This document shows positions 24,295 to 38,634 of a stretch of DNA of 64,000 nt, piece by piece. The translations under genes were made by a program, and so were the position numbers. The notes under the pieces are model-generated. The model worked only from the letters and a program-made list of their open reading frames with translations. It searched no databases and had not been told where the DNA came from. This DNA comes from an uncultured virus (IMG/VR IMGVR_UViG_2857886120_000002) (taxonomy: Duplodnaviria > Heunggongvirae > Uroviricota > Caudoviricetes). Location of the stretch: IMG/VR virus record IMGVR_UViG_2857886120_000002, one strand, 5' to 3'. The first letter of the stretch is position 1. Every line of letters starts with the position of its first letter.

Positions 24295-24365
24295 GTCTCT
24301 GATTAAAATTTATTCTTTTATATATAAAACATCTTTTATTTTGTGTCAATGCTAAATACTTAAAT

Positions 24366-24481
24366 GGCAAAAGCAAAGGGTAAAGGGGTAAGGTAAAAAG
24401 GGTAATGGTATTAAGGGTAATGGGCCATAATGGGAATGGCCCTACCTTGAAAAGGCTGAAAAGGCTAAAAGTAAAAAGGGC
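24366..24481 (+). repeat. Purine-skewed (G)GGTAA repeat tract with GGGCCAT/ATGGCCC hairpin; candidate oriT or protein-binding array
   Basis: Several GGG tracts, inverted repeat 24422-24442, TGAAAAGGC tandem at 24448-24465. Confidence 0.5.
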
Positions 24482-24558
24482 ATAACATAACTAGCTGTTG
24501 ATTTTTAATTTAATATTGAATTTAGTGAATAATTTACATTATAATGAAACCTGTTTCC

Positions 24559-24712
24559 GTTACTATTTAGTAGCAAACAACGAGAAGATGATCGTTAATT
24601 CTCAGACGTAGCCAGTAAAATGGGACGTTCCTTTTTTAAGGTGATCACGCACTAACAACCAACAAACTCACTGTTTTTTGCAGGTTGGTGACATCTATTT
24701 TGATGTTGAGTT
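24559..24712 (+). ncRNA. ~150-nt repeated structured leader, copy 1
   Basis: Homologous to the reverse complements of 31419-31571, 33185-33339, 34741-34895; TTGAAT(24516)-18-TATAAT(24540) promoter just upstream. Confidence 0.7.
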
Positions 24713-24750
24713 ATTTTAGACTATCACATTCACATATTGAGGTATACTCA

Positions 24751-25104
24751 ATGTCTTATGCAATTACTTTTGACTTCGATACAAGCAGGTTAGAGCACTA
24801 TTATCCTGGTGCATATACTAATGCTTATAAAGAAGTTAGAGATGAGTTAAAAAAGCTTGGTTTTGAATGGAAGCAAGGATCTGTATATTTTGGTAATAGT
24901 AGTATTAATGCAGTAACTTGTGTTTTAGCCGTTCAACAATTGGGACAAAAGTTTAGTTGGTTTACACCTTCATTGAAAGATATTCGAATGCTAAGAATTG
25001 AGGAATACAATGACTTACTTCCAGCATTAGTGCAACAACGAGAACTAACTCATGCCTCATTAGAAAAAAATGAGATCCAAAATAAAACAAGAAAATTATT
25101 TTAA
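24751..25104 (+). CDS. vapD: VapD-family (Cas2-like) nuclease
   Basis: YAITFDFD, AY-EVR-EL---GF-W-QGSVY, FSWF--S-KDIRMLRIEE--DL. Confidence 0.9.
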   Translation: MSYAITFDFDTSRLEHYYPGAYTNAYKEVRDELKKLGFEWKQGSVYFGNSSINAVTCVLAVQQLGQKFSWFTPSLKDIRMLRIEEYNDLLPALVQQRELTHASLEKNEIQNKTRKLF

Positions 25105-25200
25105 TAAGTAATTAATTGTTTTTTATCTTTTACCCATAGGGGAATATTTTCTCCTGTGGCGAAAGTATTCTCCTTATTTCACTTAATTAGGAGAATATCC

Positions 25201-25326
25201 ATGTTGACTAACGAATACATACTTCTTTCGACAGAATATTTTCTCGCTTTAATCAATTGCGAAGCAACTATTCCTGATGATGTATCATTAAGTTCAATCA
25301 TTCAACAATACTTACATAAGTCTTAA
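25201..25326 (+). CDS. 41-aa hypothetical protein (not in ORF track)
   Basis: AGGAG RBS, ATG 25201, TAA 25324-25326; preceded by a pseudoknot element. Confidence 0.5.
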   Translation: MLTNEYILLSTEYFLALINCEATIPDDVSLSSIIQQYLHKS

Positions 25327-25404
25327 TTTTAATGTCAACCGAGAGGGGGATTTTCACTCCTCTTGAGTGATACCTCCTGATTTTGTTTGAGGAGTTTTAT
25401 TATT

Positions 25405-25791
25405 ATGAGATGGTATTCAGAGCATAATATTCATACTAAATCTGAGTTAATTAATTTATTAATTGCTCCTGTTTATAGTGAACATTATGAAGAAAAAACA
25501 TTGCAATTTCATGTTTGTAATGACTATATTCATGGAGTAACCATATTATGGTCATTAATTGAATTTAATGTCATAAACGATTATCGAAACATTTTACTGG
25601 CAGGTAAATACCGTTACATAAAATGTAATTTGATTAAAAAAATTGACGAGGCTTGGAGTTATTCATGTTATTGTGAATTATCTTTTCCTCCTTATTATTC
25701 ATGTCCACTTAATTACCTTGAATTAGCTAATTTTGAAGTAAATCAAGAATGGCGAACTCAAGTTAGAAATTATCATCAACTACAAAAATAG
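25405..25791 (+). CDS. Conserved ICE hypothetical protein
   Basis: KSELI-LLIAP, LWS, RYI-C-L, P-YYSCPL-YL-LA, W R--VR-YH pattern seen in PFGI-1-class accessory regions. Confidence 0.7.
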   Translation: MRWYSEHNIHTKSELINLLIAPVYSEHYEEKTLQFHVCNDYIHGVTILWSLIEFNVINDYRNILLAGKYRYIKCNLIKKIDEAWSYSCYCELSFPPYYSCPLNYLELANFEVNQEWRTQVRNYHQLQK

Positions 25792-25877
25792 TTTTCCTAT
25801 TTCTATTTAAACCAGCTTACTTTATTACGCATAAAGTAGTTGGTTTTTATTTTTACTTTTTATACTGGAGCATTAAT

Positions 25878-26429
25878 ATGATTTCAATACCTGGTGAATT
25901 AGTCATTACGACCAGAACGGGGAGATATGGCAATTTTAATGTCGCCAAGCTTTTTACGTCTATTGGTGAATTTTCTTTAAAAGATAATAAATTATTGGAT
26001 CAGTATGAAGCTGGAAAATATGAAGGGTCGTTTGTTATTAAACAAATCAAATCTTCTTCATATAGTTATGGCAATCGTGTTGTTATTGAATGTTGTGCGT
26101 ATATTGAAGATATGGATCTAGTTAATTCATCTAAATTAGATGAAGCAGATTCAGAAAAAATACATGTATCAGAAGACCCTATTTGTCAGACTGAGTCATC
26201 TGAAGTTCAGAAAGTTAATACTGAGCATCAACATGAAGAAACTATGGCTACCTCAGATTCAGATGATGCTGAACTGTTTGGTATTTTATGGCCAATAGGT
26301 GATCAAGTTAAACTAGATTCAACGGAGGATCGCTTAAAAATACGTTCCCAGAAAAAACGTTTAATCGAACTTGGTTACCATTTTGACTATAAAAGCCAAT
26401 GTTGGAATAAATTGCCAGAACAATTTTAA
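25878..26429 (+). CDS. DUF3275-family protein
   Basis: MI-IPG-L-I----GRYG-FNV--L-TSIGEF, D-ELFG-LWP-G--VKLD-T-DR. Confidence 0.9.
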   Translation: MISIPGELVITTRTGRYGNFNVAKLFTSIGEFSLKDNKLLDQYEAGKYEGSFVIKQIKSSSYSYGNRVVIECCAYIEDMDLVNSSKLDEADSEKIHVSEDPICQTESSEVQKVNTEHQHEETMATSDSDDAELFGILWPIGDQVKLDSTEDRLKIRSQKKRLIELGYHFDYKSQCWNKLPEQF

Positions 26430-26508
26430 CTTAACTTATCTATCTCTGGGGAGAAACAGGTCTTCCTAGAGATCGTTTCTCCTTATATTGATTTAAGGAG
26501 AAACTTTA

Positions 26509-27087
26509 ATGAGTAACATTCTTACATTACAAGATATTCCTGATTTGAAATGTGATTGTTGTATTGCGAATAATGACTCCGAACTGATTTTTTTATCTGT
26601 ATGGGGGAAAGATACCGCAATGCAGGAACTCTTTGCAAAACTTACGATTGGCGAAACAACTAAACATGGTTTAACGGATATTAAGTTAAATCATCATCGG
26701 GTGTTTTTAGCCGAAGGAAAGCATTATGCAAAGCGCACATTGAAAGTAACTAAAACGTTATTTGGTTCGTTGATTCATGCTTTTATTTTTGATAAACGCA
26801 TTATTGAGCCAAACCGTGATTCAAATTCAATGATCTCTATTTATAAGGTAGAAGATGTTTCCACTAGACATAATCGTTACTTTGATGCAATTAAAACACT
26901 TTCATCTGTACCCATTTTAGAACATTGGGCTGACGAAATTGTATCGATTGCTAAACAACAAGGAATGATTAAAGAACATAAAGCAATTGTTGGTGATATT
27001 GATGCAACAACAATCATAGTAAACGACACAATATTAACTCAAATCATGAGCCAAAAAATTTGTGATGGTATTTTAACTTTATCATAA
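26509..27087 (+). CDS. Conserved ICE hypothetical protein
   Basis: LIFLSVWGKDTAMQE--AKLT, LFG-LIH--IFD-R, P-L-HW motifs; synteny before the MTase. Confidence 0.7.
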   Translation: MSNILTLQDIPDLKCDCCIANNDSELIFLSVWGKDTAMQELFAKLTIGETTKHGLTDIKLNHHRVFLAEGKHYAKRTLKVTKTLFGSLIHAFIFDKRIIEPNRDSNSMISIYKVEDVSTRHNRYFDAIKTLSSVPILEHWADEIVSIAKQQGMIKEHKAIVGDIDATTIIVNDTILTQIMSQKICDGILTLS

Positions 27088-27102
27088 TCATAGGGAGTAT
27101 TT

Positions 27103-28578
27103 ATGGTTGCACTTGTATCACCGAGAGTGGCGCATAATTTTGCTAAAAATGGCTATTATCCAACGGATGATGCTACAACAAATGCAATTATTAGCCATTT
27201 TGTAAGAACTGAGAATACTGCTATTCGAGTTTTAGATCCTTGCATTGGTGAAGCTCGAGCAGCAAGTAATATTGCGTATTCACTTAGTCATAAAGCAAAA
27301 CTATATGGTATTGAATACAATCGACATCGAGCAGAACTAGCTCAAAAATATTGTGATGTTTTGTTAAGAAGTGACTTATTTGATACCGTTATTTCACCTA
27401 ATTCCTTTGGTTTATTATTCTTAAATCCGCCATACGGAGATTTAACTAGTGAACATAATGGAGCAATTACAAATTATCAGAAAGACTACAAACGACTAGA
27501 GAAAATATTCTATCGTTTTACGATCCCGTCGCTTCAGTATAACGGTATTTTAGTATTAATAATTCCGTTTACTCAGCTTGATGAGATGCTTTCAAATTGG
27601 ATTGCAAATCAGTTCACTGATATTTCAATATTTACAGCTTGTGATAAACAATTCAAGCAAATTGTTATTTTTGGAAGAAAAGTTCGACAAAATAATATAG
27701 CACTTCAGGAAAAAAATGATGTGAAGGCGAAATTTAAGGCTATTTTTGAAGGAGAAATTGTTCCTGATGAGATAGCTGTTACAAATAAGCCAATGTATCA
27801 AATTCCTGAGCTAGAAAGTGAAATTAAGTCTTTCTATAAATTATCATTTACCGATGAAGAGTTAGGTCAGGAAGTTAAAAAGATAGGTGGATTATGGAAT
27901 GACTTTAATCTTTTTTTCAAAAAATGTTGTGAACGCAAACGCAAACCGTTGTGTAAAATGTCGGATTGGCATTTATCACTAGCACTGGCTGCTGGTGAAA
28001 TCAATGGTATTGTAAAATCCAATACAGGTAAAACTTATATCATTAAAGGTGATACTTACAAATCAAAGTCAAAAAGTGTTGAAAATACTTTTGATGATGA
28101 GGGCTTTATTGTTGAATCAAAAACAATTTTGACCGATAAATTTGTTCCTTCAATTAAGGCATGGGATTTCACTCCAAATTCAGAAACATTTGGTTCGTTA
28201 TTTCTAATTTCGAACCGAGATAATGAACCTGATGAATTGTGTGAAGATGATGGATGTCTTGAAAACAATCAATACAATTTGGTTATCACTGGAGAGATTT
28301 ATTTTACACAAGGAGTTAAGTCCTTAACAGATAGTGATTTTAATATGGCACTTGCTGTTTCAAAAGCGCTCAGTCGTTATGAAAAAGGTGATTGGGGTAA
28401 TGATATGGATGATAGTGACAAAAAATTAAATGATCGAGTTTTAAGGCAAGGACAAAAAAATGATCGCTTATTTGCAAGTTATAAGCTTTCTGATGATAAA
28501 AAACTATGGATTATTACAGAGTGGTATGATTATAAGCAAGCTTTTATGACTACACTAATGCTGCCGAATGAGTATTAA
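27103..28578 (+). CDS. ICE DNA methyltransferase (DUF6094/class I SAM, NPPY amino-MTase) with an extra C-terminal domain
   Basis: NF-KNGYYPTD, LDPCIGE, LFLNPPYGD, WHL-LALAAG; C-terminal GDWG...WIITEW...TTLMLPNEY module. Confidence 0.88.
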   Translation: MVALVSPRVAHNFAKNGYYPTDDATTNAIISHFVRTENTAIRVLDPCIGEARAASNIAYSLSHKAKLYGIEYNRHRAELAQKYCDVLLRSDLFDTVISPNSFGLLFLNPPYGDLTSEHNGAITNYQKDYKRLEKIFYRFTIPSLQYNGILVLIIPFTQLDEMLSNWIANQFTDISIFTACDKQFKQIVIFGRKVRQNNIALQEKNDVKAKFKAIFEGEIVPDEIAVTNKPMYQIPELESEIKSFYKLSFTDEELGQEVKKIGGLWNDFNLFFKKCCERKRKPLCKMSDWHLSLALAAGEINGIVKSNTGKTYIIKGDTYKSKSKSVENTFDDEGFIVESKTILTDKFVPSIKAWDFTPNSETFGSLFLISNRDNEPDELCEDDGCLENNQYNLVITGEIYFTQGVKSLTDSDFNMALAVSKALSRYEKGDWGNDMDDSDKKLNDRVLRQGQKNDRLFASYKLSDDKKLWIITEWYDYKQAFMTTLMLPNEY

Positions 28579-28659
28579 TTCTGTATTAATTAAAACATTA
28601 ACCCATAAGGGATACAATCCCTTGTGGAGCTTGTATCCCTTTTTATTTAAGGATTAAAA

Positions 28660-30966
28660 ATGGAACAAGTAACATTAAATACACAAATTGATTTAAATAG
28701 TTTTATTAATGAATTTAAAGATTCATTATTGGATAGTTTGAATGCATCTAATCCTCCAGTTTACCTTCAGGATGATATGTCATTTGAACGACAATCAATT
28801 ATGGAACAGTTAAAACGTAAACCATTTAGTGAACAAGCTAATGTTGTACAGGCTGTTACAAAATTGTTATTAGATCAGAATGAACCTGCAGCGATTATCA
28901 ATGCTGAAATGGGAACAGGAAAGACAATGATGGCAATTGCTGTGGCAGCAGTACTTCACTATGAAGCCCAGTATCGACGTAATCTGATAATTTCGCCACC
29001 TCATCTTGTATATAAATGGCGACGAGAAATTTTAGAAACGATACCTAGTGCAAGAGTATGGGTTTTAAATGGCTCAGATACGCTTGTGAAGCTATTAAAA
29101 TTGAGGCAAGAGCTTAAGTTAGGTATTACATCTAATGTGCCTGAATTCTACATTTTAGGACGTGTTCGAATGCGGATGGGATACCACTGGAAACATGCCT
29201 TGAAATCAAAACCTATTTACCAAAAGCAAAATATTCATGATGAGCACGGGGAGGTTAAAACAAAATACATAAAAAGAGACTGTGCTGCTTGTCCAGACTG
29301 TTATAATTTTTGTCGTGATGACGAGGGTGAGTTAATTCTTTTTAGCGATTTTGTTTTGAAAGAACATCGAACAACTTGTGTGAGTTGTGGCAGTGCTTTA
29401 TGGACTTTGATTAGACCATCAAATAACTCAAATTCTAGTTTTAGAGACAGAGTTAAAAAATCAATGTGTCAAATTCCGACAATTGGACCAGTAAAAGCTG
29501 AATCTTTAATTAATAAATTTGGTGACGATTTTCTATCTGATCTGCTTGCGGATAATGCATCAGATTTTGTTAATTTGATGGATGAAGATGGTGAGTTTAT
29601 TTTCACTGACAGACAAGCAATAAGAATGGAAAAAGCTTTAGCTAAACTTGAATTTGGTTTTGGCGAAGGTGCTTATCAAGCTACCGAATTTATCAAAAGA
29701 TATTTACCACAAGGATTTTTTGATTTATTGATTGTTGATGAAGGTCATGAGTATAAAAATCAAGGCTCTGCACAAGGGCAGGCGATGGGTGTGCTTGCCA
29801 GCCAAGTTAAAAAGATTTTACTTTTAACTGGTACTCTTATGGGAGGATATGCAGATGACCTATTTTTTTTACTTTTTCGTGTATTAACGTCTAAGATGAT
29901 TGAAGACGGTTATAAACCGAATAGCAGAGGTTCACTTGGTACCGCAGCAATGGAGTTTATGCGAGATCATGGAATCATTAAAGACCTATATACGGAAAGG
30001 CATGGAAATAGTCATAAAACAGCCAAAGGTAATCAGATTTCTCATCGAACACAAAAAGCTCCAGGTTTTGGACCAAAGGGTATTTTACGATATGTATTAC
30101 CGTATACAGTATTTCTAAAGCTTAAAGATATTGGTGATAATATTCTCCCGAATTATACTGAAGAGTATATTGATATTCCAATGTCATATGAGCAACGAAG
30201 TTATTACGATGATTTATCGAATAAACTTAAGAGTGAGTTGAGAAGTGCATTAGTGAAAAGAGATACAACATTACTTGGTGTTGTACTCAATACCTTACTT
30301 GCATGGCCTGACTGCTGTTTTAGAGCAGAAACAGTCACTCATCCAAGAGCACGAGAAGATAAGCTGGCTTTTGTGCCATCTGTATTTAGTGGTGATGAGG
30401 GTGATAGTTTTATTGAATGTTCGCCAAAAGAGCAATCTTTAGTTGAACATTGTTTAGCTGAAAAAACAGATGGTCGTAAAGTATTAGTATATGCAACTTA
30501 TACTGGTACTCGAGACATAACTGGACGGCTTAAGCTTATTTTAGAACAAGCTGGTTTAAAAACAGCTATATTAAAATCGAATGTGTCGCCAGAGAAAAGG
30601 GAGGATTGGATCTTAGACAAAGTGGATAAAGATTATGATATTGTCATAACAAATCCAGAACTTGTTAAAACTGGTCTTGATTTACTTGATTTTCCGACCA
30701 TTATTTTCTTGCAAACTGGTTTTAATGTTTACACATTGCAACAAGCAGCAAAACGCTCGTTTAGAATTGGCCAAAAAAATGATGTAAAAGTGATTTATTT
30801 GGGCTATGAAAATTCAGCACAAACAAGCTGTTTAAAATTAATGGCAAAAAAAATAGCAGTTTCACAAAGTACATCAGGAGATATACCAGATTCGGGATTA
30901 GATATACTCAATTCTGATGATGAATCTATTGAGATGGCTTTAGCGAAACAGCTAATTGCATCATAA
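28660..30966 (+). CDS. SNF2/DEAD-like superfamily 2 helicase
   Basis: NAEMGTGKT, DEGHE, LTGT, NPELVKTGLDL, QAAKRSFRIGQ. Confidence 0.92.
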   Translation: MEQVTLNTQIDLNSFINEFKDSLLDSLNASNPPVYLQDDMSFERQSIMEQLKRKPFSEQANVVQAVTKLLLDQNEPAAIINAEMGTGKTMMAIAVAAVLHYEAQYRRNLIISPPHLVYKWRREILETIPSARVWVLNGSDTLVKLLKLRQELKLGITSNVPEFYILGRVRMRMGYHWKHALKSKPIYQKQNIHDEHGEVKTKYIKRDCAACPDCYNFCRDDEGELILFSDFVLKEHRTTCVSCGSALWTLIRPSNNSNSSFRDRVKKSMCQIPTIGPVKAESLINKFGDDFLSDLLADNASDFVNLMDEDGEFIFTDRQAIRMEKALAKLEFGFGEGAYQATEFIKRYLPQGFFDLLIVDEGHEYKNQGSAQGQAMGVLASQVKKILLLTGTLMGGYADDLFFLLFRVLTSKMIEDGYKPNSRGSLGTAAMEFMRDHGIIKDLYTERHGNSHKTAKGNQISHRTQKAPGFGPKGILRYVLPYTVFLKLKDIGDNILPNYTEEYIDIPMSYEQRSYYDDLSNKLKSELRSALVKRDTTLLGVVLNTLLAWPDCCFRAETVTHPRAREDKLAFVPSVFSGDEGDSFIECSPKEQSLVEHCLAEKTDGRKVLVYATYTGTRDITGRLKLILEQAGLKTAILKSNVSPEKREDWILDKVDKDYDIVITNPELVKTGLDLLDFPTIIFLQTGFNVYTLQQAAKRSFRIGQKNDVKVIYLGYENSAQTSCLKLMAKKIAVSQSTSGDIPDSGLDILNSDDESIEMALAKQLIAS

Positions 30967-30983
30967 TAAAACAGTTATTCCAT

Positions 30984-31012
30984 AAAAAAACGCAACAATT
31001 GTTGCGTTTTTT
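30984..31012. terminator. Bidirectional terminator, duplicated at 31714-31741
   Basis: A7-CGCAACAATTGTTGCG-Tn palindrome between convergent genes. Confidence 0.75.
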
Positions 31013-31032
31013 TTGGTTTTTAAAGAGTTTGA

Positions 31033-31329
31033 TTACAATATACCATATTGTTCAAGTTGTTCAAGTATACTTAAATCTAAATTTTTTAATAATTTGATGA
31101 ATTTTTTATAATGACTAGCACTAACAATGATTTTTCTATCTACAGTTAGAAGAGAGTAGTTATATTTTAAACTCATCTTTTCATGATATTTTTTTCTGTA
31201 AGAAATAAAATCTTTCAGTGAGTCAAATATATAAACATCTTCATCATTAAAAACCCCATCTTTTGTAAAGACTATTAGACCAATGCAGCAAAGTCCGTCA
31301 TTTAGAAGAGTTTCTAGTTTATTATTCAT
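31033..31329 (-). CDS. Hypothetical protein (98 aa)
   Basis: AAGGAG RBS and ATG at 31329 downstream of leader copy 2. Confidence 0.65.
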   Translation of the reverse strand: MNNKLETLLNDGLCCIGLIVFTKDGVFNDEDVYIFDSLKDFISYRKKYHEKMSLKYNYSLLTVDRKIIVSASHYKKFIKLLKNLDLSILEQLEQYGIL

Positions 31330-31418
31330 GATATTCTCCTTGGAAATATGAGTGAAATTAAAAGGAGAATATTTTCGCCATAGGGAAAATTTTCCCCTAT
31401 GGGTGAGTGGATGACTGA

Positions 31419-31571
31419 AACTCAACATCAAATAGATGTTACCAACCTGCAAGAAACAGTGAGTTTGTTGGCTGTTAGTGTGTGATCACCTTAATTAAAA
31501 GGAACGTCCCATTTCTGGCTACGTCTGAGAATTAATGATCATCTTCTCGTTGTTTGTTACTAAAAAATAAC
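31419..31571 (-). ncRNA. ~150-nt repeated structured leader, copy 2
   Basis: Homologous to copy 1; TTGAAT(31611)-16-TATACT(31589) promoter on the minus strand. Confidence 0.7.
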
Positions 31572-31739
31572 TAAGGCAGAATCAGTATACTAATTTATCT
31601 CAAATATTCAATACTAGCATGAAAAAAATGTGGAAGTTTTGCTTTTTTATTTGTAATGTTACAGTCAATGTACGAACCTACTCCAGTTGAATGTAAGTCA
31701 AAAGTTATTTTATAAAAAAACGCAACAATTGTTGCGTTT

Positions 31740-32072
31740 TTATTGATTTTTAGATGGTTTTTTATCAAAACAAATCTCTTTTAACTGAGTTTCAGTGAAA
31801 TTATTTTGTTCAGAATCTGCAAAATCCGAAATAGTAAAATTACAAACTTCCCCCCATGTTACTAGGCACTCAACACACGTTATTGGGTATTTGTTTTCAG
31901 CGATTTTTAGAGAATCGCCGATTACTTCATTTTTTTCATTTCTTTTTATTGTATAGCTATTGCAGAGCGTGCCATCACTAGTTGCTATATGTGTTAATGT
32001 TCGTTGTAGAACTAGTCCTTTTTGTGTTTTAATTTGTTCGATTGTTGTAATTGTTTTTTTGATTGTTTCCAT
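31740..32072 (-). CDS. Hypothetical protein
   Basis: ORF with GAGG RBS, ending at a terminator copy. Confidence 0.6.
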   Translation of the reverse strand: METIKKTITTIEQIKTQKGLVLQRTLTHIATSDGTLCNSYTIKRNEKNEVIGDSLKIAENKYPITCVECLVTWGEVCNFTISDFADSEQNNFTETQLKEICFDKKPSKNQ

Positions 32073-32200
32073 TATTAGCCTCAACTCCTCTTTTTAAATC
32101 TATCTTCATTCAGTATTCCTTAATTAAATTTCTCACCTCTGCACTGAATAAAATCAGTTGTAAAAAAAGCAAGTTTCCTTGCTTTCTTATTGTGAATTAT

Positions 32201-32614
32201 TTAACTAGTTAAGAGACAAATATTATCAATAATTTCACCATCAATACTTAATACAGCTTCAGAATACAAATCAAAATAGGCATTATGACCTAATTCTTTT
32301 AAATGCTCCAAAAAACAAATCAAAAAACATTGTGTATAATCTCCTGATGATAAAATTTCTTTATAAGATGAATTGAAACGGCTAGCAATTTTATGATTGA
32401 AATCATTTAAATTATTACATTGCCATTGTTTTATCAACCAATCTTCCATTTTTGATAGATAGAGATTAAATTCAACGCCTTCTCCATCAGAGAATGAATT
32501 AATCAAATCATATCGTTTAATATTAGATAATATATCGTCATCAATTTTTATAATGTCATCTCTAAGATAGAGTCGTTTACTAGTAACATTATCAAGTTTA
32601 TTTTCAATATACAT
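32201..32614 (-). CDS. Hypothetical protein
   Basis: 137-aa ORF, AGGAG RBS within a pseudoknot element, terminator at 32163-32185. Confidence 0.65.
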   Translation of the reverse strand: MYIENKLDNVTSKRLYLRDDIIKIDDDILSNIKRYDLINSFSDGEGVEFNLYLSKMEDWLIKQWQCNNLNDFNHKIASRFNSSYKEILSSGDYTQCFLICFLEHLKELGHNAYFDLYSEAVLSIDGEIIDNICLLTS

Positions 32615-32699
32615 AAGTGTTCTCCTATAGTTTTAAGTTTCAAAGGAGAACCCTCCATTAGGAGTATTCTCCTAATGGAAATGGAATTGTGTAGAGTTT

Positions 32700-33092
32700 T
32701 TATAAAGCTAATTCATAATTAGATAGATCAATGAGTTTAGCTATTTCAATATTACGAACAATAGGTAATTTGCGTTTCAGATATTCGAGGAAATTAGTTG
32801 TTGGGTTTAACTGCCAATGAACTAATACTACATTTACTAAGCCACTAATTACTATGTTCTGGGTAGAATTGTCTACTATTGATGCACGTTTAACTTTACA
32901 TGGACGATTATTAATTTCACCATCCATCCAAATATCACCAAGAAGGTGAGTAATTTCATTTTCAACCTCAATAATTGAATTAAAACTACGCTCAGAAGTG
33001 ATAATTTCGACCTGATTATTGTCAGTAAAAGTGATCTCTAGTTTAAATCCATAATTATTTGTAAATAAGTCTTTAATGTAATTAATTGTCAT
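32700..33092 (-). CDS. Hypothetical protein
   Basis: GGAG RBS and ATG at 33092 downstream of leader copy 3. Confidence 0.65.
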   Translation of the reverse strand: MTINYIKDLFTNNYGFKLEITFTDNNQVEIITSERSFNSIIEVENEITHLLGDIWMDGEINNRPCKVKRASIVDNSTQNIVISGLVNVVLVHWQLNPTTNFLEYLKRKLPIVRNIEIAKLIDLSNYELAL

Positions 33093-33339
33093 AATATTCT
33101 CCAAAATTAAGTCAATAAAAAGGAGAATTTATGCCCGATAGGGATAAAATTCCCCTATGGGTGAGTAAAAGGTAAGTTAATAAGAACTCAACATCCAATA
33201 GATGTTACCAACCTGCAAGAAACAGTGAGTTTGTTGGCTGTTAGTGTGTGATCACCTTAATTAAAAGGAACATACCATTTTACTGGCTATGTCTGAGAAT
33301 TAACGATCATCCTCTCGTTGTTTGCTACTAAAAGTAGCG
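33088..33339 (-). repeat. 252-bp direct repeat A (leader copy 3 + pseudoknot + RBS + start codon)
   Basis: Matches 34644-34895 with two mismatches by eye. Confidence 0.95.
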
Positions 33340-33359
33340 AAAAAAATTAGTATAACGAT

Positions 33360-33650
33360 TTAATTAATGCGCTGCTTTGCATCGTTGTAAACATTTAAAG
33401 ATTCTCGCTTACCTATCGCTAACACTTTGATAATAATAAGCTCATCAATAACTTTATAGACCATTCTGAATCCAGACGACCTCAATTTTATTTTGAAACA
33501 CCCAGATAGTGAACCACTTAACTTAGCTGATTCAATATAAGGGTTAATCTGAAGTTTTTTTAACTTTTTTTTAAATTGAAGCTGTATACTCCGATCTAAT
33601 TTATTCCATTCTTTAAATGCCTTTTCATCGAACACGACTTTAAAGGTCAT
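33360..33650 (-). CDS. relE: RelE/StbE-family toxin
   Basis: F-EKA-KEW-KLD-SI--QFKKKL, KIKLRSSG-R-VY-V, AIGKRE. Confidence 0.93.
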   Translation of the reverse strand: MTFKVVFDEKAFKEWNKLDRSIQLQFKKKLKKLQINPYIESAKLSGSLSGCFKIKLRSSGFRMVYKVIDELIIIKVLAIGKRESLNVYNDAKQRIN

Positions 33651-34017
33651 CCACATTCACCTCAATAATTTTACCTGGGTTTCTGAGTCTATCTTCGGCA
33701 ATTCTAAGAATATCTTCATCTTCGTCAATACACGGAACTAAACGAATTATTTCCGGTTGGTTTGATTTATGTTTAATTTGCCATAAATCATACTGGGATT
33801 GTAATGATAACCACATTCTTGCAGTGCTAATTCCGGCTAGTTCTAATCGCCAAGCTAGGGTTGGCGAAATAGGGGCTTTACCATGTAACACTCTTGATAT
33901 TGTTTCACGTGAAAAACCTAGATGTTTAGCAAAATCAGTAATAGTCATATTTAATGTATTAGGTAAAATTTCGTCTAATAAAATTTCACCAGGATGTGAA
34001 GGGTTAAACATTTCCAT
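33640..34017 (-). CDS. higA: HigA-family HTH antitoxin with a RelB/StbD-like C-terminal tail
   Basis: HPGEIL, A-HLG-SR-T-SR, A-MWL-LQ-QYDLW; tail EDILRIAEDRL...EVNVDDL overlapping relE start. Confidence 0.85.
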   Translation of the reverse strand: MEMFNPSHPGEILLDEILPNTLNMTITDFAKHLGFSRETISRVLHGKAPISPTLAWRLELAGISTARMWLSLQSQYDLWQIKHKSNQPEIIRLVPCIDEDEDILRIAEDRLRNPGKIIEVNVDDL

Positions 34018-34025
34018 AAATGCTC

Positions 34026-34082
34026 CAATACCTCTAGTTGGACTAGTTTCAAAAGTTCCAGTCCTTTATGTTCAAAACTTTT
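34026..34082 (-). pseudogene. Remnant of higB toxin 5' end
   Basis: Minus strand reads KSFEHKGLEL then, after a frameshift, FETSPTRGI, resembling HigB N-termini; it runs directly into the higA RBS. Confidence 0.55.
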
Positions 34083-34183
34083 AAGCCTTTTTCCGTGATG
34101 AATTACATCACAAATGGAGAGTTGAAGCAACTGATTTAACAATTAAAAAAGCAAGTTTCCTTGCTTTTTTGAGTTGTTAATTG

Positions 34184-34648
34184 TTACGCAACATTACTGA
34201 GTTCTTCATCATGTTGAGGTTCACTTTGATTTTCTAAATGCTCGATTTTATCCGAATATTTAAGTTCACCATCAATTTTAATGCTGGAGATTTTTAGTAA
34301 TCGAGCTTTTAAATTGATTCCAACATTTCCTTTTTTAACTCCAGTGCTGTATGTAAATGTTTCAGCATAGATATCACCGACGCAAAAACTGATTAAGATT
34401 TTTTTGTTGGCTTTATTTGCTTCAATGCATTTTTCAACTAAGCTTTTTGCTTTTTCACCGGTAACGTTACAGTTAATGTAGGTATATTCGGCGTTTTGGC
34501 AATTTCCTCGCAGTGCGGCGATTGTACATGATAAATACGGTTTACCATTTTTGACTTTAACTTCACGGATTCGGTTTAAATAGCCAATTCCAGTTGTATG
34601 TAAATCAAAAAATTGTTTAGTTACTGTGTTATTAGTTAAGTTAGTCAT
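34184..34648 (-). CDS. DUF3577 / STY4534-family ICE protein
   Basis: FFDLHTTGIGYLNRIREV, L-CTIAALRG, LKARLL-I--IKIDGE. Confidence 0.9.
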   Translation of the reverse strand: MTNLTNNTVTKQFFDLHTTGIGYLNRIREVKVKNGKPYLSCTIAALRGNCQNAEYTYINCNVTGEKAKSLVEKCIEANKANKKILISFCVGDIYAETFTYSTGVKKGNVGINLKARLLKISSIKIDGELKYSDKIEHLENQSEPQHDEELSNVA

Positions 34649-34895
34649 AATATTCTCCAAAATTAAGTCAATAAAAAGGAGAATTTATGCCCGATAGGGA
34701 TAAAATTCCCCTATGGGTGAGTAAAAGGTAAGTTAATAAGAACTCAACATCCAATAGATGTTACCAACCTGCAAGAAACAGTGAGTTTGTTGGCTGTTAG
34801 TGTGTGATCACCTTAATTAAAAGGAACATACCATTTTACTGGCTATGTCTGAGAATTAACGATCATCTTCTCGTTGCTTGCTACTAAAAGTAGCG
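34644..34895 (-). repeat. 252-bp direct repeat B (leader copy 4 + pseudoknot + RBS + start codon)
   Basis: Matches 33088-33339; TTGCGA(34934)-16-TATAAT(34912) promoter upstream on the minus strand. Confidence 0.95.
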
Positions 34896-35018
34896 GAAAC
34901 AAACTAATTATACTAATTAAGTAAAAATTCGCAATATGAGTATTTATTTTTCTATATTAAATATGGTTCATCAAGTTTATATTGATAAACATACAGGTTT
35001 TTAAAAATTGTATTGATT

Positions 35019-36869
35019 ATGCTTCATTTCATAAAAAAGTTAATTGTTAAAAATAAACATGAGAGTATCAGTACTAATGAGAATTTATCATCATTGGAAG
35101 ACTGGTATATTCCAAAATCGGCAACAGAATTGCTTGATACACCTTCTCGAAAAAAGCTGATCTCACTAATTTGGCAACGAGTATCAATTGATCAACAAAG
35201 ATTTAATAAATTATATATGGATGTTATCAATAATTATGTTGAAATAGTGCAATTACTGCCCGCTTCGGAGGCACACCATCATTCGTATACAGGTGGTATG
35301 ATTGATCACGGACTTGAGGTGGCAAATTATGCATTGAAGTTGAGGCAATCTTACTTACTTGGAGCTAACGCAGAAGATATTCCAAGACAAGCTCAAGCTT
35401 GGAGTGCTGCAGTTGTATACGGTGCATTGTTACATGACATAGGTAAAGTTGTTGTAGATGTTCATGTTGAAATGAATGACGGTAACATTTGGTATCCCTG
35501 GCAAAGTAATTTAGCTTTACCATATCGGTTTAATTACAAAAAAGATAGAGATTATTCTCTTCATCCATGTGCAGCTACACTAATGGTTAAGCGAATTTTG
35601 CCAGATGAAAGTATCACTTGGTTATCTCAATTCCCAGAATTATTTAAATCATTTTTAAGTTTATGTTCTGGTCACACTGAAAAAGCTGGCGTATTATCTG
35701 AAATTATACAAAAAGCAGATATGTTTTCTGTATCGAATAATCTAGGTGGAGATCCAACAAAAATACTGAGCAAACCAGTATCATTAATGAGTAAAATGAT
35801 AGTTTCGATAAGGTATTTAGTTGAGTCGGAATTAATTTTGAATGGTCCAAAAGCTTGCGATGGCTGGTTTGATGGGAAAGATGTTTGGGTTATCAGTAAG
35901 TCATTCACCGATAAAATGAAAGCTAATTTGTTGCAAAATGGTATAACTGATATACCGACTGATAATGCAAAAATATTTAATATACTAAGAGAGCATGGGA
36001 TAGCAATAGCAAATGAAGATAAAACTATTTGGCCGTGTAAAATTGAATCTGAGGAGAGTGGTTGGATTGCTGAAAAATTAACACTTATCCGTATACCTGC
36101 TAATGTTGCTTTTCATAATATTACTAATGCTCCAGAACCATTCAAGGGTTCAATCACTCCACTGTTAACAGAAGCAGATGATCTTAACTCCATACGTGAT
36201 AATATTTCAACGGAAGAGGTTAAAGAAGAGTCTAAATTAAACATTGCATCTGAGTCTGTAGATGACAAAGCTTCTAGAATGCAAGATACAATATTGAACC
36301 TATTTTCTAATGAACAAACAAATACTGCGATATCTGAAGTAGATATAGCTGATAATCATGATGATTGCGACAATTTTAAAGAGGATCGTCAAATAAGAGA
36401 AAATGATTTAAAAAATAATAATATTTCTATTTCAAATGAGTGTATTTCTAACACATTAGATAATGATGATATCTATAATCACCCATTTTTTAAATGGGTT
36501 AGACGTCAAATTATTGATAAAAAATTACCTGTTAATAACCAAAATGCATGCATTCATACTGTTGATGGTAAAATATTCATGATAACTCCTAAAATTTTTA
36601 AAAAATATAGTTTATATATACATGGTAATGATGATGATAGTAACTGGAAACAATATCAACGTGAATTTCAAGAGTTGAAAATTCATACAAAATTCAGTGA
36701 TGAAGGATTTAATATCTGGAAGTGCCTAATTTCTGGGAAAAGAAAAAGCCATACTTTTATCAAAGGTTATTTAATTGATAACAAACCATTATTTGCTATT
36801 GAGAATAATTTGCATGATAATCCACATCTAACATTAATTCATGATGTTAATATTTACAAAAACAATTAG
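35019..36869 (+). CDS. mobH: MobH-family relaxase (TraI_2, HD domain)
   Basis: VQLLPASEAHHHSY-GGM-DHGLEV, ALLHDIGK, I-KAD; adjacent to integrase. Confidence 0.93.
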   Translation: MLHFIKKLIVKNKHESISTNENLSSLEDWYIPKSATELLDTPSRKKLISLIWQRVSIDQQRFNKLYMDVINNYVEIVQLLPASEAHHHSYTGGMIDHGLEVANYALKLRQSYLLGANAEDIPRQAQAWSAAVVYGALLHDIGKVVVDVHVEMNDGNIWYPWQSNLALPYRFNYKKDRDYSLHPCAATLMVKRILPDESITWLSQFPELFKSFLSLCSGHTEKAGVLSEIIQKADMFSVSNNLGGDPTKILSKPVSLMSKMIVSIRYLVESELILNGPKACDGWFDGKDVWVISKSFTDKMKANLLQNGITDIPTDNAKIFNILREHGIAIANEDKTIWPCKIESEESGWIAEKLTLIRIPANVAFHNITNAPEPFKGSITPLLTEADDLNSIRDNISTEEVKEESKLNIASESVDDKASRMQDTILNLFSNEQTNTAISEVDIADNHDDCDNFKEDRQIRENDLKNNNISISNECISNTLDNDDIYNHPFFKWVRRQIIDKKLPVNNQNACIHTVDGKIFMITPKIFKKYSLYIHGNDDDSNWKQYQREFQELKIHTKFSDEGFNIWKCLISGKRKSHTFIKGYLIDNKPLFAIENNLHDNPHLTLIHDVNIYKNN

Positions 36870-36895: not shown

Positions 36896-37854
36896 ATGGA
36901 AATAAAAAAAGAAAAAATATCTTGGCAGGAATTGCTCATAGTATATCTAGAATTTAAACAATTGCGTAAACAAACTATCTATAATTATAGAAGGTATATT
37001 GAAGCATTTACTCGATTTTTTAATAGTGATTTTACAAATATTAACTCAATTAACCATAAAACAGTATCAAACTTTAGAAGCCATATTTTGGAGGTCAGAC
37101 AATGTAAACATGTAACGTGGAATAGTTATTGTCGTCATTTTAAAGCGTTAATGGGATTTGGTATAGAACAAGGCTTAGTTATTCAAAAAAAAATCCATTT
37201 GATAAGATGTTAATAAAACCAGGAAAGAAAGCTAAAAAGACTATATCACAAGCAGATATTGATATTTGTTTAAGTTTTCTTAAAGAAAAACAGCTAAAAG
37301 AATCACCAAGAGATTTTTGTTATCCCGCCCAATTTTGGATAACACTGATTAAAATTTTGCAGTATACGGGTATTCGACGTAATCAATTGTTGCATATTCG
37401 TATTTGTGATATTAATGATAAAGATAAAAAACTTTTTTTAAGAGAAGAGGGTTCGAAAACCCATAACGAAAGAGAAATTCCTCTGATTGACGATGTTTTT
37501 CAAGATATTGTTGAATTAAAGAAACAATTAAAGATGTTAAATAAAAAAACGACCATGCAGCTATTTAATATTTATCATTTTAAAAATGATAAATGTGATT
37601 ATTACAAAGAAATGAATTTTGATCGAATAGATGCGTTTTTTCAGCGATTATCAAAAGTTTGCAATGTTAAAGTTAGTCCGCATCGATTCAGGCATACATT
37701 AGCAACAAATCTGATGAAACAGCCAGATCGAAATGTAACATTAGTAAAGGAGCTATTAGGGCATTCATCGTTGTCAACAACATTAGAGTATATAGTAACA
37801 GATCATGATCAATTAAGATCTTGTTTAGATGAGCATTTTAATCAATTAAAATAA
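36896..37854 (+). pseudogene. Tyrosine recombinase (XerC-like ICE integrase) split by a frameshift at an A9 run (37185-37193)
   Basis: N-part with TWNSY-RH-KAL (36896-37213); C-part in the -1 frame with YTGIRRNQL, SKT, SPHRFRHTLAT, LGHS, Y; adding one A restores QKKNPFDKMLIKPG. Confidence 0.85.
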
Positions 37855-38502: not shown

Positions 38503-38559
38503 GATTGAATTCCTTGTGGAGTAAATTTATTTAATCACCAACAGCACGCCAATACTGGA

Positions 38560-38634
38560 GGTGAACTGAACAAGGTTGGCGTACCGCTCCACAAGAATAC
38601 GGCGAGCCTTTCGGCTCCCTTATCCAGCTCACCA
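38560..38634 (-). ncRNA. C4/CI-like antisense RNA (P1 c4 / P4 CI type)
   Basis: Closing stem GGTGAGCTGGATAAGG/CCTTGTTCAGTTCACC, GAGCC-GAAA-GGCTC hairpin, loop CTTGTGGA and ACGCCAA complementary to flanking TCCACAAG and TTGGCGT boxes. Confidence 0.8.

What the first reader, a model, noticed from the sequence alone, without database searches (positions are those of the whole stretch)
24516..34934. Four copies of a promoter-led ~150-nt structured leader head the ICE accessory operons
Seen: homologous blocks at 24559-24712 (+), 31419-31571 (-), 33185-33339 (-) and 34741-34895 (-). Each starts shortly after a -10 box (TATAAT or TATACT; a -35 is clear in three) and precedes unrelated genes (vapD-to-helicase block, hypotheticals, DUF3577). 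Changes between copies preserve pairing: GACGT..ACGTT in copies 1-2 versus GACAT..ATGTT in copies 3-4 (G-C to A-U), the 5' hairpin GTTACT/AGTAGC, GCTACT/AGTAGC, GTTATT/AGTAAC, and the 3' ACATC/GATGT hairpin. Known analogues: CUP repeats of IncN pKM101 and EGeRS leaders of Bacillus pLS20 co-regulate establishment genes. Inference: an undescribed RNA-based regulon for transient expression after transfer in PFGI-1-class ICEs. This is the best candidate for a new system in the window.
Basis: partly seen in the sequence, partly recalled or inferred. Interest (0 to 1): 0.85.

Follow-up and report, generated by a model that had tools for sequence, protein, structure and literature searches.

The report
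Uncatalogued structured leader RNA in ICE
Four operons of a conjugative island in a bee-gut bacterium each begin with the same folded, pseudoknotted RNA leader of about 155 bases, which is absent from the RNA catalogue and occupies the place that the known but unexplained STAXI RNA holds in related islands.

Summary
The window holds exactly four copies of a ~155-nt element (24555-24716 +, 31415-31575 -, 33181-33342 -, 34737-34898 -), each 4-10 nt behind a -10 box and 34-88 nt ahead of a co-oriented gene.

In relatives (8 of 49 genomes of the host family, none elsewhere) the fold is strongly supported: 48 pairs including a pseudoknot, 98% of cells paired against 23-42% when slid, and 13-23 pairs with compensatory changes. 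G-U pairs place the fold on the sense strand.

No Rfam family matches, STAXI included. However, in other PFGI-1/MPF_G ICEs of the same order, STAXI (RF01728, function unknown) sits at the same place upstream of DUF3577. STAXI is also multi-copy there and is followed by the same conserved switch: a hairpin carrying a pseudo-SD, then an anti-SD, then the SD.

I therefore read this as an uncatalogued variant of a known kind, the promoter-proximal leader RNA of ICE establishment operons. It most likely acts in cis on a translation/attenuation switch that is OFF by default.

Copies within one ICE are kept alike, which points to a shared trans factor. Transcription, that factor, and the claimed "transient expression after transfer" all remain untested.

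The parts
24516..24545 (+). promoter-like site of copy 1 (TTGAAT-18-TATAAT)
   Evidence: 10 of 12 matches. The -10 ends 9 nt before the model start.
24555..24716 (+). leader element copy 1 (c1)
   Evidence: R1 hit of 178.6 bits; alignments.
24717..24753 (+). c1 3' part: hairpin that buries the SD (GAGG) and the AUG of the VapD-like gene
   Evidence: MFE is -50.4 kcal/mol against -42.5 with the SD forced open.
24751..30966 (+). operon behind c1: VapD/Cas2-like (24751-25104), small ORF (25201-25326), hypothetical (25387-25791), DUF3275 (25878-26429), hypothetical (26509-27087), DUF6094 methyltransferase (27103-28578), SNF2 helicase (28660-30966)
   Evidence: Pfam; NCBIfam.
25133..25200 (+). internal lock module before the small ORF: hairpin with pseudo-SD, then anti-SD TTCTCC, then SD GGAGAA
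26442..26508 (+). internal lock module before ORF 26509
31584..31611 (-). promoter-like site of copy 2 (TTGAAT-16-TATACT)
31415..31575 (-). leader element copy 2 (c2)
   Evidence: R1 hit of 165.4 bits.
31330..31414 (-). c2 platform: hairpin A, anti-SD plus U-run, SD. The gene behind it is 31329..31033 (98 aa, no family).
33349..33354 (-). -10 box TATACT of copy 3. There is no -35; the upstream region is the 3' end of the ParE/RelE gene.
33181..33342 (-). leader element copy 3 (c3)
   Evidence: R1 hit of 181.3 bits.
33093..33180 (-). c3 platform. Genes behind it: 33092..32700, 32614..32201 and 32084..31740 (no family).
32615..32681 (-). internal lock module before ORF 32614
34907..34934 (-). 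promoter-like site of copy 4 (TTGCGA-16-TATAAT)
   Evidence: 10 of 12 matches
34737..34898 (-). leader element copy 4 (c4)
   Evidence: R1 hit of 181.0 bits.
34649..34736 (-). c4 platform: hairpin A CCCATAGGG/CCCTATcGGG carrying the pseudo-SD GGGGAATTT, then anti-SD AAATTCTCC plus T-run, then SD GGAGAA
34184..34648 (-). DUF3577 / STY4534-family ICE replication protein, with a predicted SSB/PriB-like OB fold. A terminator follows at 34172-34143.

Best explanation
Each copy is the 5' leader of an mRNA made from an ordinary double-strand sigma-70 promoter.

The first ~155 nt fold into a compact domain. It comprises a 5'-terminal hairpin; hairpin P3, whose loop forms a pseudoknot with the invariant GGUGAUCAC stretch; a bulged hairpin; a CCUU/AAGG hairpin; a two-tier hairpin with the invariant internal loop AAACUCA; and a 3' hairpin.

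In three of the four copies a conserved switch follows the domain. It consists of a GC-rich hairpin carrying an SD look-alike (pseudo-SD), an anti-SD (UUCUCC) followed by a U-run, and the real SD. In copy 1 a plain hairpin buries the SD and the AUG instead.

By default the anti-SD pairs with the SD, so translation is locked. If the anti-SD pairs with the pseudo-SD, the SD is freed. If that happens during transcription, a terminator forms.

I propose that the domain is the common handle through which one trans-acting factor sets this switch on all four operons at once. That would make the accessory and establishment genes (DUF3577 OB-fold protein, VapD-like, methyltransferase, SNF2 helicase, hypotheticals) one post-transcriptional regulon. 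The arrangement is the counterpart, in this bacterial family, of STAXI-led operons in other PFGI-1/MPF_G ICEs.

Shown: the repeats, the fold, the strand, the position of the -10 boxes, the switch and its covariation, the likeness of copies within an ICE, and the STAXI parallel.

Inferred: that the element is transcribed, that the domain controls the switch, that a trans factor exists, and the timing after transfer.
For: Fold.
- RNAalifold on 18 copies gives 42 pairs, 11 with compensatory changes.
- With the pseudoknot added there are 48 pairs; 98.1% of cells are paired against 23.5-42.1% when slid; 13 pairs change on both sides; 0 of 500 shuffles reach the observed value on 4 of 5 measures.
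- On the wider model-fitted alignment (23 distinct rows): 97.7% paired, 23 pairs with changes on both sides, 0 of 500 shuffles on all five measures.
- The pseudoknot helix is 99.1% paired and 2 of its pairs covary (UGAUC/GAUCA becomes UGGUU/GACCA).

Strand.
- 68 of 862 cells are G-U, so the sense strand is 98.1% paired and the antisense strand 90.3%.

Leader position.
- 19 of 21 copies have a -10 hexamer matching at least 5 of 6 positions, ending 4-10 nt before the model start.
- 18 of 21 copies have a co-oriented ORF starting 34-92 nt downstream.
- Copies lie on both DNA strands of one ICE and always face their gene.

Switch.
- Pseudo-SD, anti-SD and SD covary as a trio across lineages: AAUUU here, AAACAU in family f9, AAAAUC and AAAUACA in STAXI-led leaders.
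- Duplex energies are 2-5 sd below shuffles in 17 of 19 modules scored.
- The probability that the SD is unpaired is about 0, and the closed state is 7.6-10.6 kcal/mol more stable.
- The pattern TTCTCC-N8-38-GGAGAA occurs 7 times against 0.07 expected, always within 25149-34683.
- A run of at least 4 U follows the anti-SD in 12 of the 13 leaders that carry this platform.

Selection.
- In orthologous DUF3577 loci the element is 73.5-86.4% identical, the CDS 73.8-91.4%, the platform 85.9-95.5% and the upstream 100 nt 59-72%.

Shared factor.
- Paralogous copies within one ICE are each other's nearest neighbours (98%, 98% and 95%) although they head different genes. Orthologous copies are less alike, e.g. 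87%.

STAXI parallel.
- STAXI lies directly upstream of DUF3577 in 5 of 5 loci from families f18 and f21.
- It is present in 3-14 copies per genome.
- Its leaders have the same anatomy.
Against: - There is no evidence of transcription. No listed run is on record as RNA, and laid contigs cannot show RNA ends.
- No pairing that links the domain to the switch is supported by covariation. The candidate contact UGAGU/ACUCA is invariant in the domain and missing from the linker in 3 leaders.
- The switch also occurs inside the operons without the domain, so it can work without it.
- All covariation comes from 8 genomes of two genera. Related sequences inflate shuffle tests, and A4 is fitted to the model's structure.
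- The promoter consensus matches are not enriched in this AT-rich region.
- Likeness of copies within an ICE could result from gene conversion alone.
Confidence: 0.6

Rival explanations
1. Processive antitermination RNA, as with put of phage HK022 or conAn of pLS20. The nascent domain would bind the RNA polymerase that made it and let it read through the leader terminator and the terminators inside the operons.
For: - The domain is promoter-proximal and cis-located at every unit.
- The pseudo-SD/anti-SD helix followed by a U-run is a terminator-like structure right behind the domain in 12 of 13 platform-bearing leaders.
- Further terminator-like hairpins lie within or between the units, at 32185-32166 and about 25810-25855.
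Against: - Copy 1 has no terminator between the domain and its gene.
- STAXI-led leaders L054 and L056 lack a clear U-run.
- The anti-SD/SD pairing, which is translational, is the best conserved feature.
- No likeness to a known antiterminator RNA was found in Rfam.
Confidence: 0.12
2. Trans-acting small RNA or decoy. Transcription would stop at the leader terminator, releasing a ~235-nt RNA in four copies per ICE that titrates a host or ICE protein, for example a defence or DNA/RNA-binding protein.
For: - Terminator-like structure lies behind the domain.
- Rfam files STAXI as an sRNA gene.
- Cury et al. link STAXI and radC RNAs to anti-restriction (PMC5587801, passage read).
- STAXI RNA was detected by RT-qPCR in vesicles (PMC12370729, passages read).
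- Multi-copy, homogenised copies would fit a need for dosage.
Against: - The closed state (hairpin A plus anti-SD/SD) is favoured by 7.6-10.6 kcal/mol over the terminator form.
- Copy 1 has no terminator.
- Every intact copy is tied to a gene at a fixed distance, which a free-standing sRNA gene does not need.
Confidence: 0.1
3. Ligand-sensing riboswitch. The domain would be an aptamer for a small molecule and the switch its expression platform.
For: - The layout is aptamer-like: a multi-helix, pseudoknotted domain with long invariant unpaired stretches.
- It is followed by a bistable terminator/SD platform.
Against: - The downstream genes are unrelated to any metabolite.
- The equivalent slot in sister ICEs holds a quite different fold (STAXI), which is hard to reconcile with a single ligand.
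- The distribution is narrow.
Confidence: 0.06
4. Single-stranded DNA signal of the transferred strand, either an Frpo-like ssDNA promoter or a priming (ssi) site.
For: - The genes nearby handle ssDNA (ssb, topB, DUF3577 OB fold, relaxase).
- Weinberg et al. raised this possibility for STAXI (PMC2864571, section 26 read).
Against: - Copies lie on both strands of one ICE (c1 + against c2-c4 -; the same holds in 5 other genomes), whereas only one strand is transferred.
- The fold is on the non-template strand.
- The -35 and -10 hexamers lie outside and upstream of the fold.
- Orientation and distance to the gene are fixed.
Confidence: 0.04
5. Passive element: a duplicated promoter-plus-5'-UTR cassette that mainly stabilises the mRNA through its 5' hairpin, spreads by recombination, and has no regulatory input.
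For: - A 5'-terminal hairpin is present in nearly all variants.
- Copies are homogenised within ICEs.
- A contig in one run joins 33244 to 34115, hinting at recombination at the copies (weak).
Against: - 13-23 pairs are maintained by compensatory change, as is a pseudoknot.
- Long invariant unpaired stretches are more than a stabiliser needs.
- The element is about as conserved as the coding sequence.
Confidence: 0.08

Closest known systems
STAXI RNA motif (Rfam RF01728; Weinberg et al. 2010, PMC2864571, section 26 read)
   Same: - Length about 150 nt, with a pseudoknot.
- Found in PFGI-1/MPF_G ICEs, several copies per element (PMC5587801 passage).
- Lies directly behind a promoter-like site and directly upstream of DUF3577.
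- Begins with a 5-6-bp hairpin.
- Followed by the same hairpin / anti-SD / SD switch.
- Function unknown.
   Different: - The STAXI model does not score it even when only 321 nt are searched at E<=10.
- The reverse search gives only 6-8 bits.
- STAXI is 2-3 tandem copies of one pseudoknot unit with a CUGAGAGGAG-type internal loop. This element has five different hairpins and one loop-to-linker pseudoknot.
- Homology is neither shown nor excluded.
EGeRS1 sequences of pLS20-family plasmids (Val-Calvo et al. 2021, PMC8708921; abstract and sections 12 and 20 read)
   Same: A conserved, inverted-repeat-rich non-coding block repeated upstream of several establishment operons of a conjugative element. 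The mechanism is unknown, and the authors judged an ssDNA promoter unlikely.
   Different: - EGeRS1 is 400-600 bp, GC-rich, from Gram-positive plasmids, and has no strong sigma-A promoter.
- No covariation analysis is reported.
- I did not compare sequences, as none was at hand.
Frpo / ssi single-strand promoters of F and ColIb-P9 (named in PMC8708921 section 20; listed; details recalled)
   Same: Homologous non-coding repeats ahead of leading-region genes, giving co-ordinated early expression.
   Different: Frpo folds the transferred template strand so that the -35 and -10 lie within the stem, and all copies share one strand. Here the fold is on the sense strand, the promoter lies outside it, and the copies face both ways.
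Autoregulated leader of phage T4 gene 32 (recalled, not read here)
   Same: A 5' pseudoknot in the leader of a gene for an OB-fold single-strand-binding protein. There, translation is tied to the amount of free ssDNA.
   Different: In T4 the protein binds an unstructured tract over the RBS. Here the RBS is buried in a helix, the leader also heads unrelated operons, and no binding is shown.
put RNAs of HK022 and the conAn system of pLS20 (recalled, not read here)
   Same: Promoter-proximal cis-acting structured RNA at the head of long operons of a mobile element.
   Different: There is no sequence or fold likeness, and antitermination is untested here.

Membership tests
STAXI (RF01728) | Scores at or above the family's gathering threshold (40.5 bits) with the Rfam covariance model | tested here: not met
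   No STAXI match at gathering on the whole window, at E<=10 on 24300-35100, or at E<=10 on 34640-34960 alone. The same model scores 39.6-97.6 bits on 5 DUF3577 loci of other families.
STAXI (RF01728) | One pseudoknot unit repeated in tandem two or three times | tested here: not met
   The consensus fold has five unlike hairpins and one pseudoknot between the P3 loop and the stretch after P6. Only the P7/P8 hairpin resembles a STAXI unit in outline.
STAXI (RF01728) | Lies in ICEs near ssb, topoisomerase, integrase or antirestriction genes, in several copies | tested here: met
   The window carries a PFGI-1-class ICE with ssb, topB, MobH relaxase and integrase and four copies. The diverged copy in G006 lies next to topB fragments.
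STAXI (RF01728) | Promoter-proximal, directly upstream of DUF3577 (seen here for STAXI; not part of Rfam's definition) | tested here: met
   c4 heads DUF3577, and 6 of 21 tabulated copies head DUF3577. STAXI does the same in L052, L053, L054, L056 and L066.
Frpo-type single-strand DNA promoter | The -35 and -10 are formed inside the hairpin of the transferred template strand | tested here: not met
   The hexamers lie upstream of the fold. The fold is on the non-template strand (98.1% paired against 90.3%).
Frpo-type single-strand DNA promoter / ssi site | All copies on the one transferred strand | tested here: not met
   c1 is on + and c2-c4 on -. Copies in opposite orientations also occur in G019, G030, G037, G044 and G046.
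Riboswitch | A conserved aptamer that binds a ligand, coupled to an expression platform | not testable with these tools
   A platform-like switch is present. No ligand or coupling helix could be shown.
Processive antiterminator RNA (put-like) | Acts on the transcribing polymerase to suppress downstream terminators | not testable with these tools
   Terminator-like sites exist downstream.
EGeRS1 (pLS20 family) | Sequence likeness to the 400-600-bp EGeRS1 blocks | not tested
   No EGeRS1 sequence was at hand. blastn of the element against 72,556 plasmid records found nothing.
Gene-32-type autoregulated SSB leader | The downstream gene encodes a single-strand nucleic-acid-binding protein that binds its own leader | tested here: inconclusive
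   The DUF3577 model (pLDDT 81.9) matches PriB and SSB OB folds at Z 8-10, rmsd 2.2-4, with 86-102 residues aligned. Foldseek E-values are only 1e-3 to 1e-2. There is no sequence likeness to the ICE's own SSB. Binding is untested.

The most novel reading that the evidence does not exclude
The leader would be the RNA arm of an ssDNA sensor.

The DUF3577 protein has a predicted SSB/PriB-like OB fold and is the one gene that this leader, STAXI and the f9 variant all precede. It would bind the pseudoknotted domain and set the anti-SD switch on every leader of the ICE.

While ICE single-stranded DNA is present, after entry or during rolling-circle replication, the protein would be titrated away and the state of the regulon would flip. 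Once the DNA is double-stranded it would flip back.

This would give ICEs of this class a protein-plus-RNA route to transient establishment-gene expression, in place of the ssDNA promoters of F-like plasmids. It would also assign a function to STAXI, a motif unexplained since 2010.
Probability: 0.15. Interest if true: 0.85.

Novelty: new variant of a known kind. Interest (0 to 1): 0.6.

Why it matters
How ICEs time the expression of establishment and anti-defence genes is largely unknown. F-like plasmids use ssDNA promoters and p576 uses a repressor, while STAXI and EGeRS1 remain unexplained.

The result here is that two unrelated-looking folds, STAXI and this element, occupy the same slot. 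Both lie in front of the same conserved three-part SD switch and the same OB-fold gene. This points to a shared post-transcriptional control module in PFGI-1/MPF_G ICEs and makes it testable.

The host appears from record titles to be Gilliamella. It is not a pathogen, and published plasmid toolkits cover Orbaceae (PMC10209150, search listing only). The element also adds a well-supported candidate family to the RNA catalogue.

Tried and rejected
- **RNA evidence.** The look-up of sequencing runs listed no holder on record as RNA. I laid four runs, but all are contigs. One run guessed to be RNA has a contig over 24638-25326 and one over 33088-33260; this shows neither starts, strand nor expression.
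- **Wider relatives.**
  - blastn against plasmids and phages found no match.
  - An order-wide blastn of 401 genomes gave real matches only in family f1; the other hits were 20-25-nt matches at E>0.003.
  - A class sample of 151 genomes with the model gave 0 hits.
  - The pattern scan of genome contigs gave 18 loci. Eight are in records titled Gilliamella sp.; the other 10 score nothing with the model.
  - The pattern scan of metagenome contigs gave 16 loci, and 0 of 16 score with the model.
- **Small peptide in the leader.** The short ORFs inside the element differ between copies (read) and were dropped.
- **Dam sites.** The two GATC sites in the pseudoknot arms are lost together in G044 and G046, in a way that keeps the pairing. 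RNA pairing, not methylation, is therefore the conserved feature.
- **Homology to STAXI.** The reverse search with R1 gave only 6.2 and 7.8 bits over two STAXI sites, among 43 hits at E<=10. This is not evidence.
- **Coupling of the domain to the switch.** UGAGU/ACUCA pairing has no covariation and is absent from the linker in G044c, G046a and G006.
- **DUF3577.** Its profile found nothing convincing among PDB sequences (best E 0.2) and nothing against the ICE's SSB by hhalign.

Full report
**What is there**

- Their alignment shows a sharply bounded conserved core of about 155 nt, with diverged sequence on both sides.
- The repeat finder recovers the same blocks.
- blastn gives 91-99% identity between copies.
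- A covariance model (R1) built from 18 copies in this window and in relatives hits the 64-kb window exactly four times, at 165-181 bits: 24555-24716 (+), 31415-31575 (-), 33181-33342 (-) and 34737-34898 (-).

**Setting**

The window carries a PFGI-1-class (MPF_G type) integrative conjugative element.
- Backbone and transfer genes: PFL_4669/AcaB-like regulator, ssb, topB, PilL2, the type IV secretion genes up to TraG_N at 23965, a MobH/PFGI-1-class relaxase at 35013-36869, and an integrase at 36896-37854.
- The four leaders lie in the accessory block between TraG_N and the relaxase and head two converging sets of genes.
  - c1 leads to VapD/Cas2-like, a small ORF, DUF3275, a DUF6094 methyltransferase and an SNF2 helicase.
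  - c4 leads to DUF3577 (NCBIfam: STY4534-family ICE replication protein).
  - c3 leads to three hypotheticals.
  - c2 leads to one hypothetical.

**Distribution**

The window's own assembly is not held.

| Search | Result |
|---|---|
| blastn, nearest bacterial family | 6 of 49 genomes |
| R1 model, same family | 8 of 49 genomes (5 of 38 in the nearest genus, 3 of 5 in a second genus, 0 of 6 in four others), 1-3 model matches each (4 blastn pieces in G044) |
| blastn, 401 genomes of the order | nothing convincing outside that family |
| R1 model, 151 genomes of the class | 0 |
| blastn, plasmid and phage records | no match |
| Pattern scan, 185,579 species genomes | 18 loci: 8 in records titled Gilliamella sp.; the other 10 do not score with R1 |
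| Pattern scan, metagenome contigs | 16 loci, none scoring with R1 |

The family is real but narrow.

**It is a folded strand, and the fold is on the sense strand**

- RNAalifold on 18 copies predicts 42 pairs, 11 with compensatory changes.
- I added a pseudoknot seen by eye: the P3 loop UGAUCG pairs with UGAUCA just after the CCUU/AAGG hairpin.
  - The structure then has 48 pairs.
  - 98.1% of cells are paired, against 23.5-42.1% when the partners are slid by 1-3 columns.
  - 13 pairs change on both sides.
  - None of 500 shuffles reaches the observed value on four of five measures; for further pair types, 51 of 500 do.
  - The pseudoknot helix is 99.1% paired. It covaries from UGAUC/GAUCA to UGGUU/GACCA in the second genus.
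- Two diverged copies were added: G006 at 54 bits and G046b at 95 bits.
  - In G006, helices P3 and P8 are rewritten entirely.
  - This raises the count to 23 of 48 pairs with double changes.
  - That alignment is fitted to the model and leans towards it.
- 68 of 862 cells are G-U, so the gene-sense strand is 98.1% paired and the opposite strand 90.3%.

**It is a leader**

- 19 of 21 copies have a -10 hexamer (TATAAT or TATACT, at least 5 of 6 matches) ending 4-10 nt before the model's first position.
- 18 of 21 have a co-oriented ORF starting 34-92 nt behind the element.
- The three exceptions are a rearranged copy (G019b) and two degenerate ones (G046b, G043).
- Copies lie on both DNA strands of one ICE and always face their gene.
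- Together with the sense-strand fold, and with -35 and -10 lying outside the fold, this argues against an Frpo-like ssDNA promoter or a priming site on the transferred strand, and for an RNA.
- Transcription itself is not shown. No listed run is on record as RNA, and laid contigs cannot show RNA ends.

**Comparison with the catalogue**

No Rfam family matches the element. This holds at gathering thresholds, at E<=10 over 10.8 kb, and at E<=10 over 321 nt around c4.

The decisive comparison came from the downstream gene.
- DUF3577 occurs in 15 of 401 genomes sampled from the order.
- In all 5 loci from two other families, the Rfam STAXI model hits directly upstream of DUF3577 on the gene strand: 97.6, 89.6, 40.5, 40.0 and 39.6 bits, against a gathering score of 40.5.
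- STAXI is also multi-copy there: 3, 3, 14 and 9 matches in four genomes, and 0 in a complete genome that carries the present element.
- It heads other units too, namely an integrase and small hypotheticals.
- Weinberg et al. described STAXI in 2010 as a tandemly repeated pseudoknot near ssb, topoisomerase, antirestriction and integrase genes. They left its function open, and left open whether it acts as RNA or ssDNA (PMC2864571, section 26).
- Cury et al. noted that radC and STAXI make up 80% of RNA hits in MPF_G ICEs (PMC5587801, passage).
- Earlier notes of this scan on E. coli ICEs say the same of STAXI: promoter-proximal, multi-copy, ahead of DUF3577-ssb. My searches agree with them.

**A shared switch behind both leaders**

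Reading the leaders side by side shows one common anatomy:
- a promoter-like site;
- a 5-6-bp 5' hairpin;
- a structured domain of about 150 nt;
- a GC-rich hairpin (CCC...GGGAA / UUCCC...GGG);
- an anti-SD;
- the SD and AUG.

Only the domain differs: STAXI, a STAXI-like but Rfam-negative form in six loci of a third family (f9), or the present element.

The three short segments of the platform covary as a trio.

| Lineage | Pseudo-SD | Anti-SD | SD |
|---|---|---|---|
| This window | GGGGAAUUU | AAAUUCUCC | GGAGAAUAU |
| Family f9 | GGGAAACAU | AUGUUUCUCC | GGAGAAACAU |
| One STAXI lineage | GGGGAAAAUC | GAUUUUCUCC | GGAGAAAAUC |
| Another STAXI lineage | AAAUACA-based trio | | |

- Duplex energies lie 2-5 sd below shuffles in 17 of 19 modules scored. 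Both alternative pairings are therefore under selection.
- Thermodynamically the SD is shut. The probability that it is unpaired is about 0, and the closed state is 7.6-10.6 kcal/mol more stable for c1, c2 and c4.
- The pseudo-SD/anti-SD helix is followed by a run of at least 4 U in 12 of 13 platform-bearing leaders. It can therefore also act as an attenuator.
- The same lock, without the domain, stands before internal cistrons. The pattern TTCTCC-N8-38-GGAGAA occurs 7 times against 0.07 expected, always within 25149-34683.
- In orthologous DUF3577 loci the platform is the best conserved part (85.9-95.5%). The element (73.5-86.4%) is about as conserved as the coding sequence (73.8-91.4%). The upstream 100 nt is least conserved (59-72%).

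**One regulon**

Copies within one ICE are each other's nearest relatives although they head different genes:
- window c3 and c4, 98%;
- G037a and G037b, 98%;
- G044a and G044b, 95%.

Copies ahead of the same gene in different genomes are less alike; for example, window c4 against G012b is 87%. This is what co-evolution with one shared partner would give. Gene conversion alone would give it too.

**Mechanism**

My best reading, at 0.6, has four parts.
- The element is a cis-acting leader RNA.
- The operons are locked at the ribosome-binding site by default.
- The domain is the handle by which one factor sets the switch on all leaders.
- It is the counterpart of STAXI in this bacterial family.

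The link between the domain and the switch is inferred. The only candidate contact, the invariant 3' UGAGU with ACUCA, has no covariation and is missing from the linker in three leaders.

Rivals:

| Rival | Probability |
|---|---|
| put-like antitermination | 0.12 |
| Released sRNA or decoy | 0.10 |
| Passive stabilising cassette | 0.08 |
| Ligand riboswitch | 0.06 |
| ssDNA signal | 0.04 |

**The boldest reading not excluded**

DUF3577 is the one gene preceded by all three leader types.
- Its AlphaFold model (pLDDT 81.9) matches PriB and SSB OB folds at Z 8-10 over nearly the whole domain.
- Foldseek gives only E 1e-3 to 1e-2 for these matches.
- There is no sequence likeness to SSB.

An OB-fold protein that binds its own pseudoknotted leader and is titrated by ICE ssDNA would tie the regulon to the presence of ssDNA. 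The T4 gene 32 case is the precedent, which I recall rather than read here. I put this reading at 0.15.

**Verdict**

- The element is a well-supported structured RNA family that is not catalogued.
- It is a new variant of a known kind rather than a new system.
- The claim about timing after transfer is untested.

Noticed in passing
window 1-274 and 1554-1613: Array of 6.7 tandem 39-46-nt repeats (unit GTCTAATTACTGTTACGGGGGGTTACAGCTAGCTGAGTA) at the window's start, upstream of the PFL_4669/AcaB-like gene (319-981). One further copy lies at 1554-1613. They could be binding sites for a partition or regulator protein.
   Followed up: no
window 24360-24480: Purine-rich tract with 2.9 copies of a 15-nt unit (AAAAGGGTAATGGTA; 24382-24423), between the end of the secretion genes and the c1 promoter.
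   Followed up: no
window 30970-31030, 31700-31760; 34143-34172, 32166-32185: Two pairs of near-identical terminator hairpins: a two-way AAAAACGCAACAATTGTTGCGTTTTT pair (87% alike) and a GCAAGGAAACTTGC pair. They bound the leader-led units.
   Followed up: partly
window 36896-37854: The integrase is read as two overlapping ORFs in different frames: the SAM-like N-domain at 36896-37213 and the catalytic domain at 37207-37854. This may be a frameshift, in which case the ICE may not excise.
   Followed up: no
window 38554-38740 (-) and 39093-40166 (-): C4 antisense RNA (69.8 bits) and isrK (53.2 bits) lie next to a baseplate-hub (GPD) gene, so a P2-like prophage abuts the ICE. Weinberg et al. noted that STAXI is occasionally near c4 RNAs (PMC2864571).
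   Followed up: no
window 5122-5775: A 655-nt gap without a listed ORF after topB. There is no Rfam match at gathering and no R1 match. In E. coli ICEs this is where STAXI lies, according to earlier notes.
   Followed up: partly
L055, L057, L058, L059, L060, L062 (upstream of DUF3577): Six loci of a third bacterial family carry a ~150-200-nt leader with a 5' hairpin and STAXI-like units (CUUGAAAGAG / CUGAAAGGAG internal loops). The Rfam STAXI model does not report it at E<=1. The same anti-SD switch follows it. This may be another uncatalogued variant.
   Followed up: partly
window 34184-34648 (-): DUF3577 (STY4534-family 'ICE replication protein') is predicted to fold as an SSB/PriB-like OB domain: Z 8-10 to PriB and SSB chains, with 86-102 residues aligned. 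No experimental study of the family turned up in two literature searches.
   Followed up: partly
window 33244 / 34115: One contig of run X2 joins 33244 (inside c3) to 34115, skipping the HigA-ParE pair and the c3 promoter (only 21 letters on the short side). If real, the leader copies serve as recombination points.
   Followed up: no
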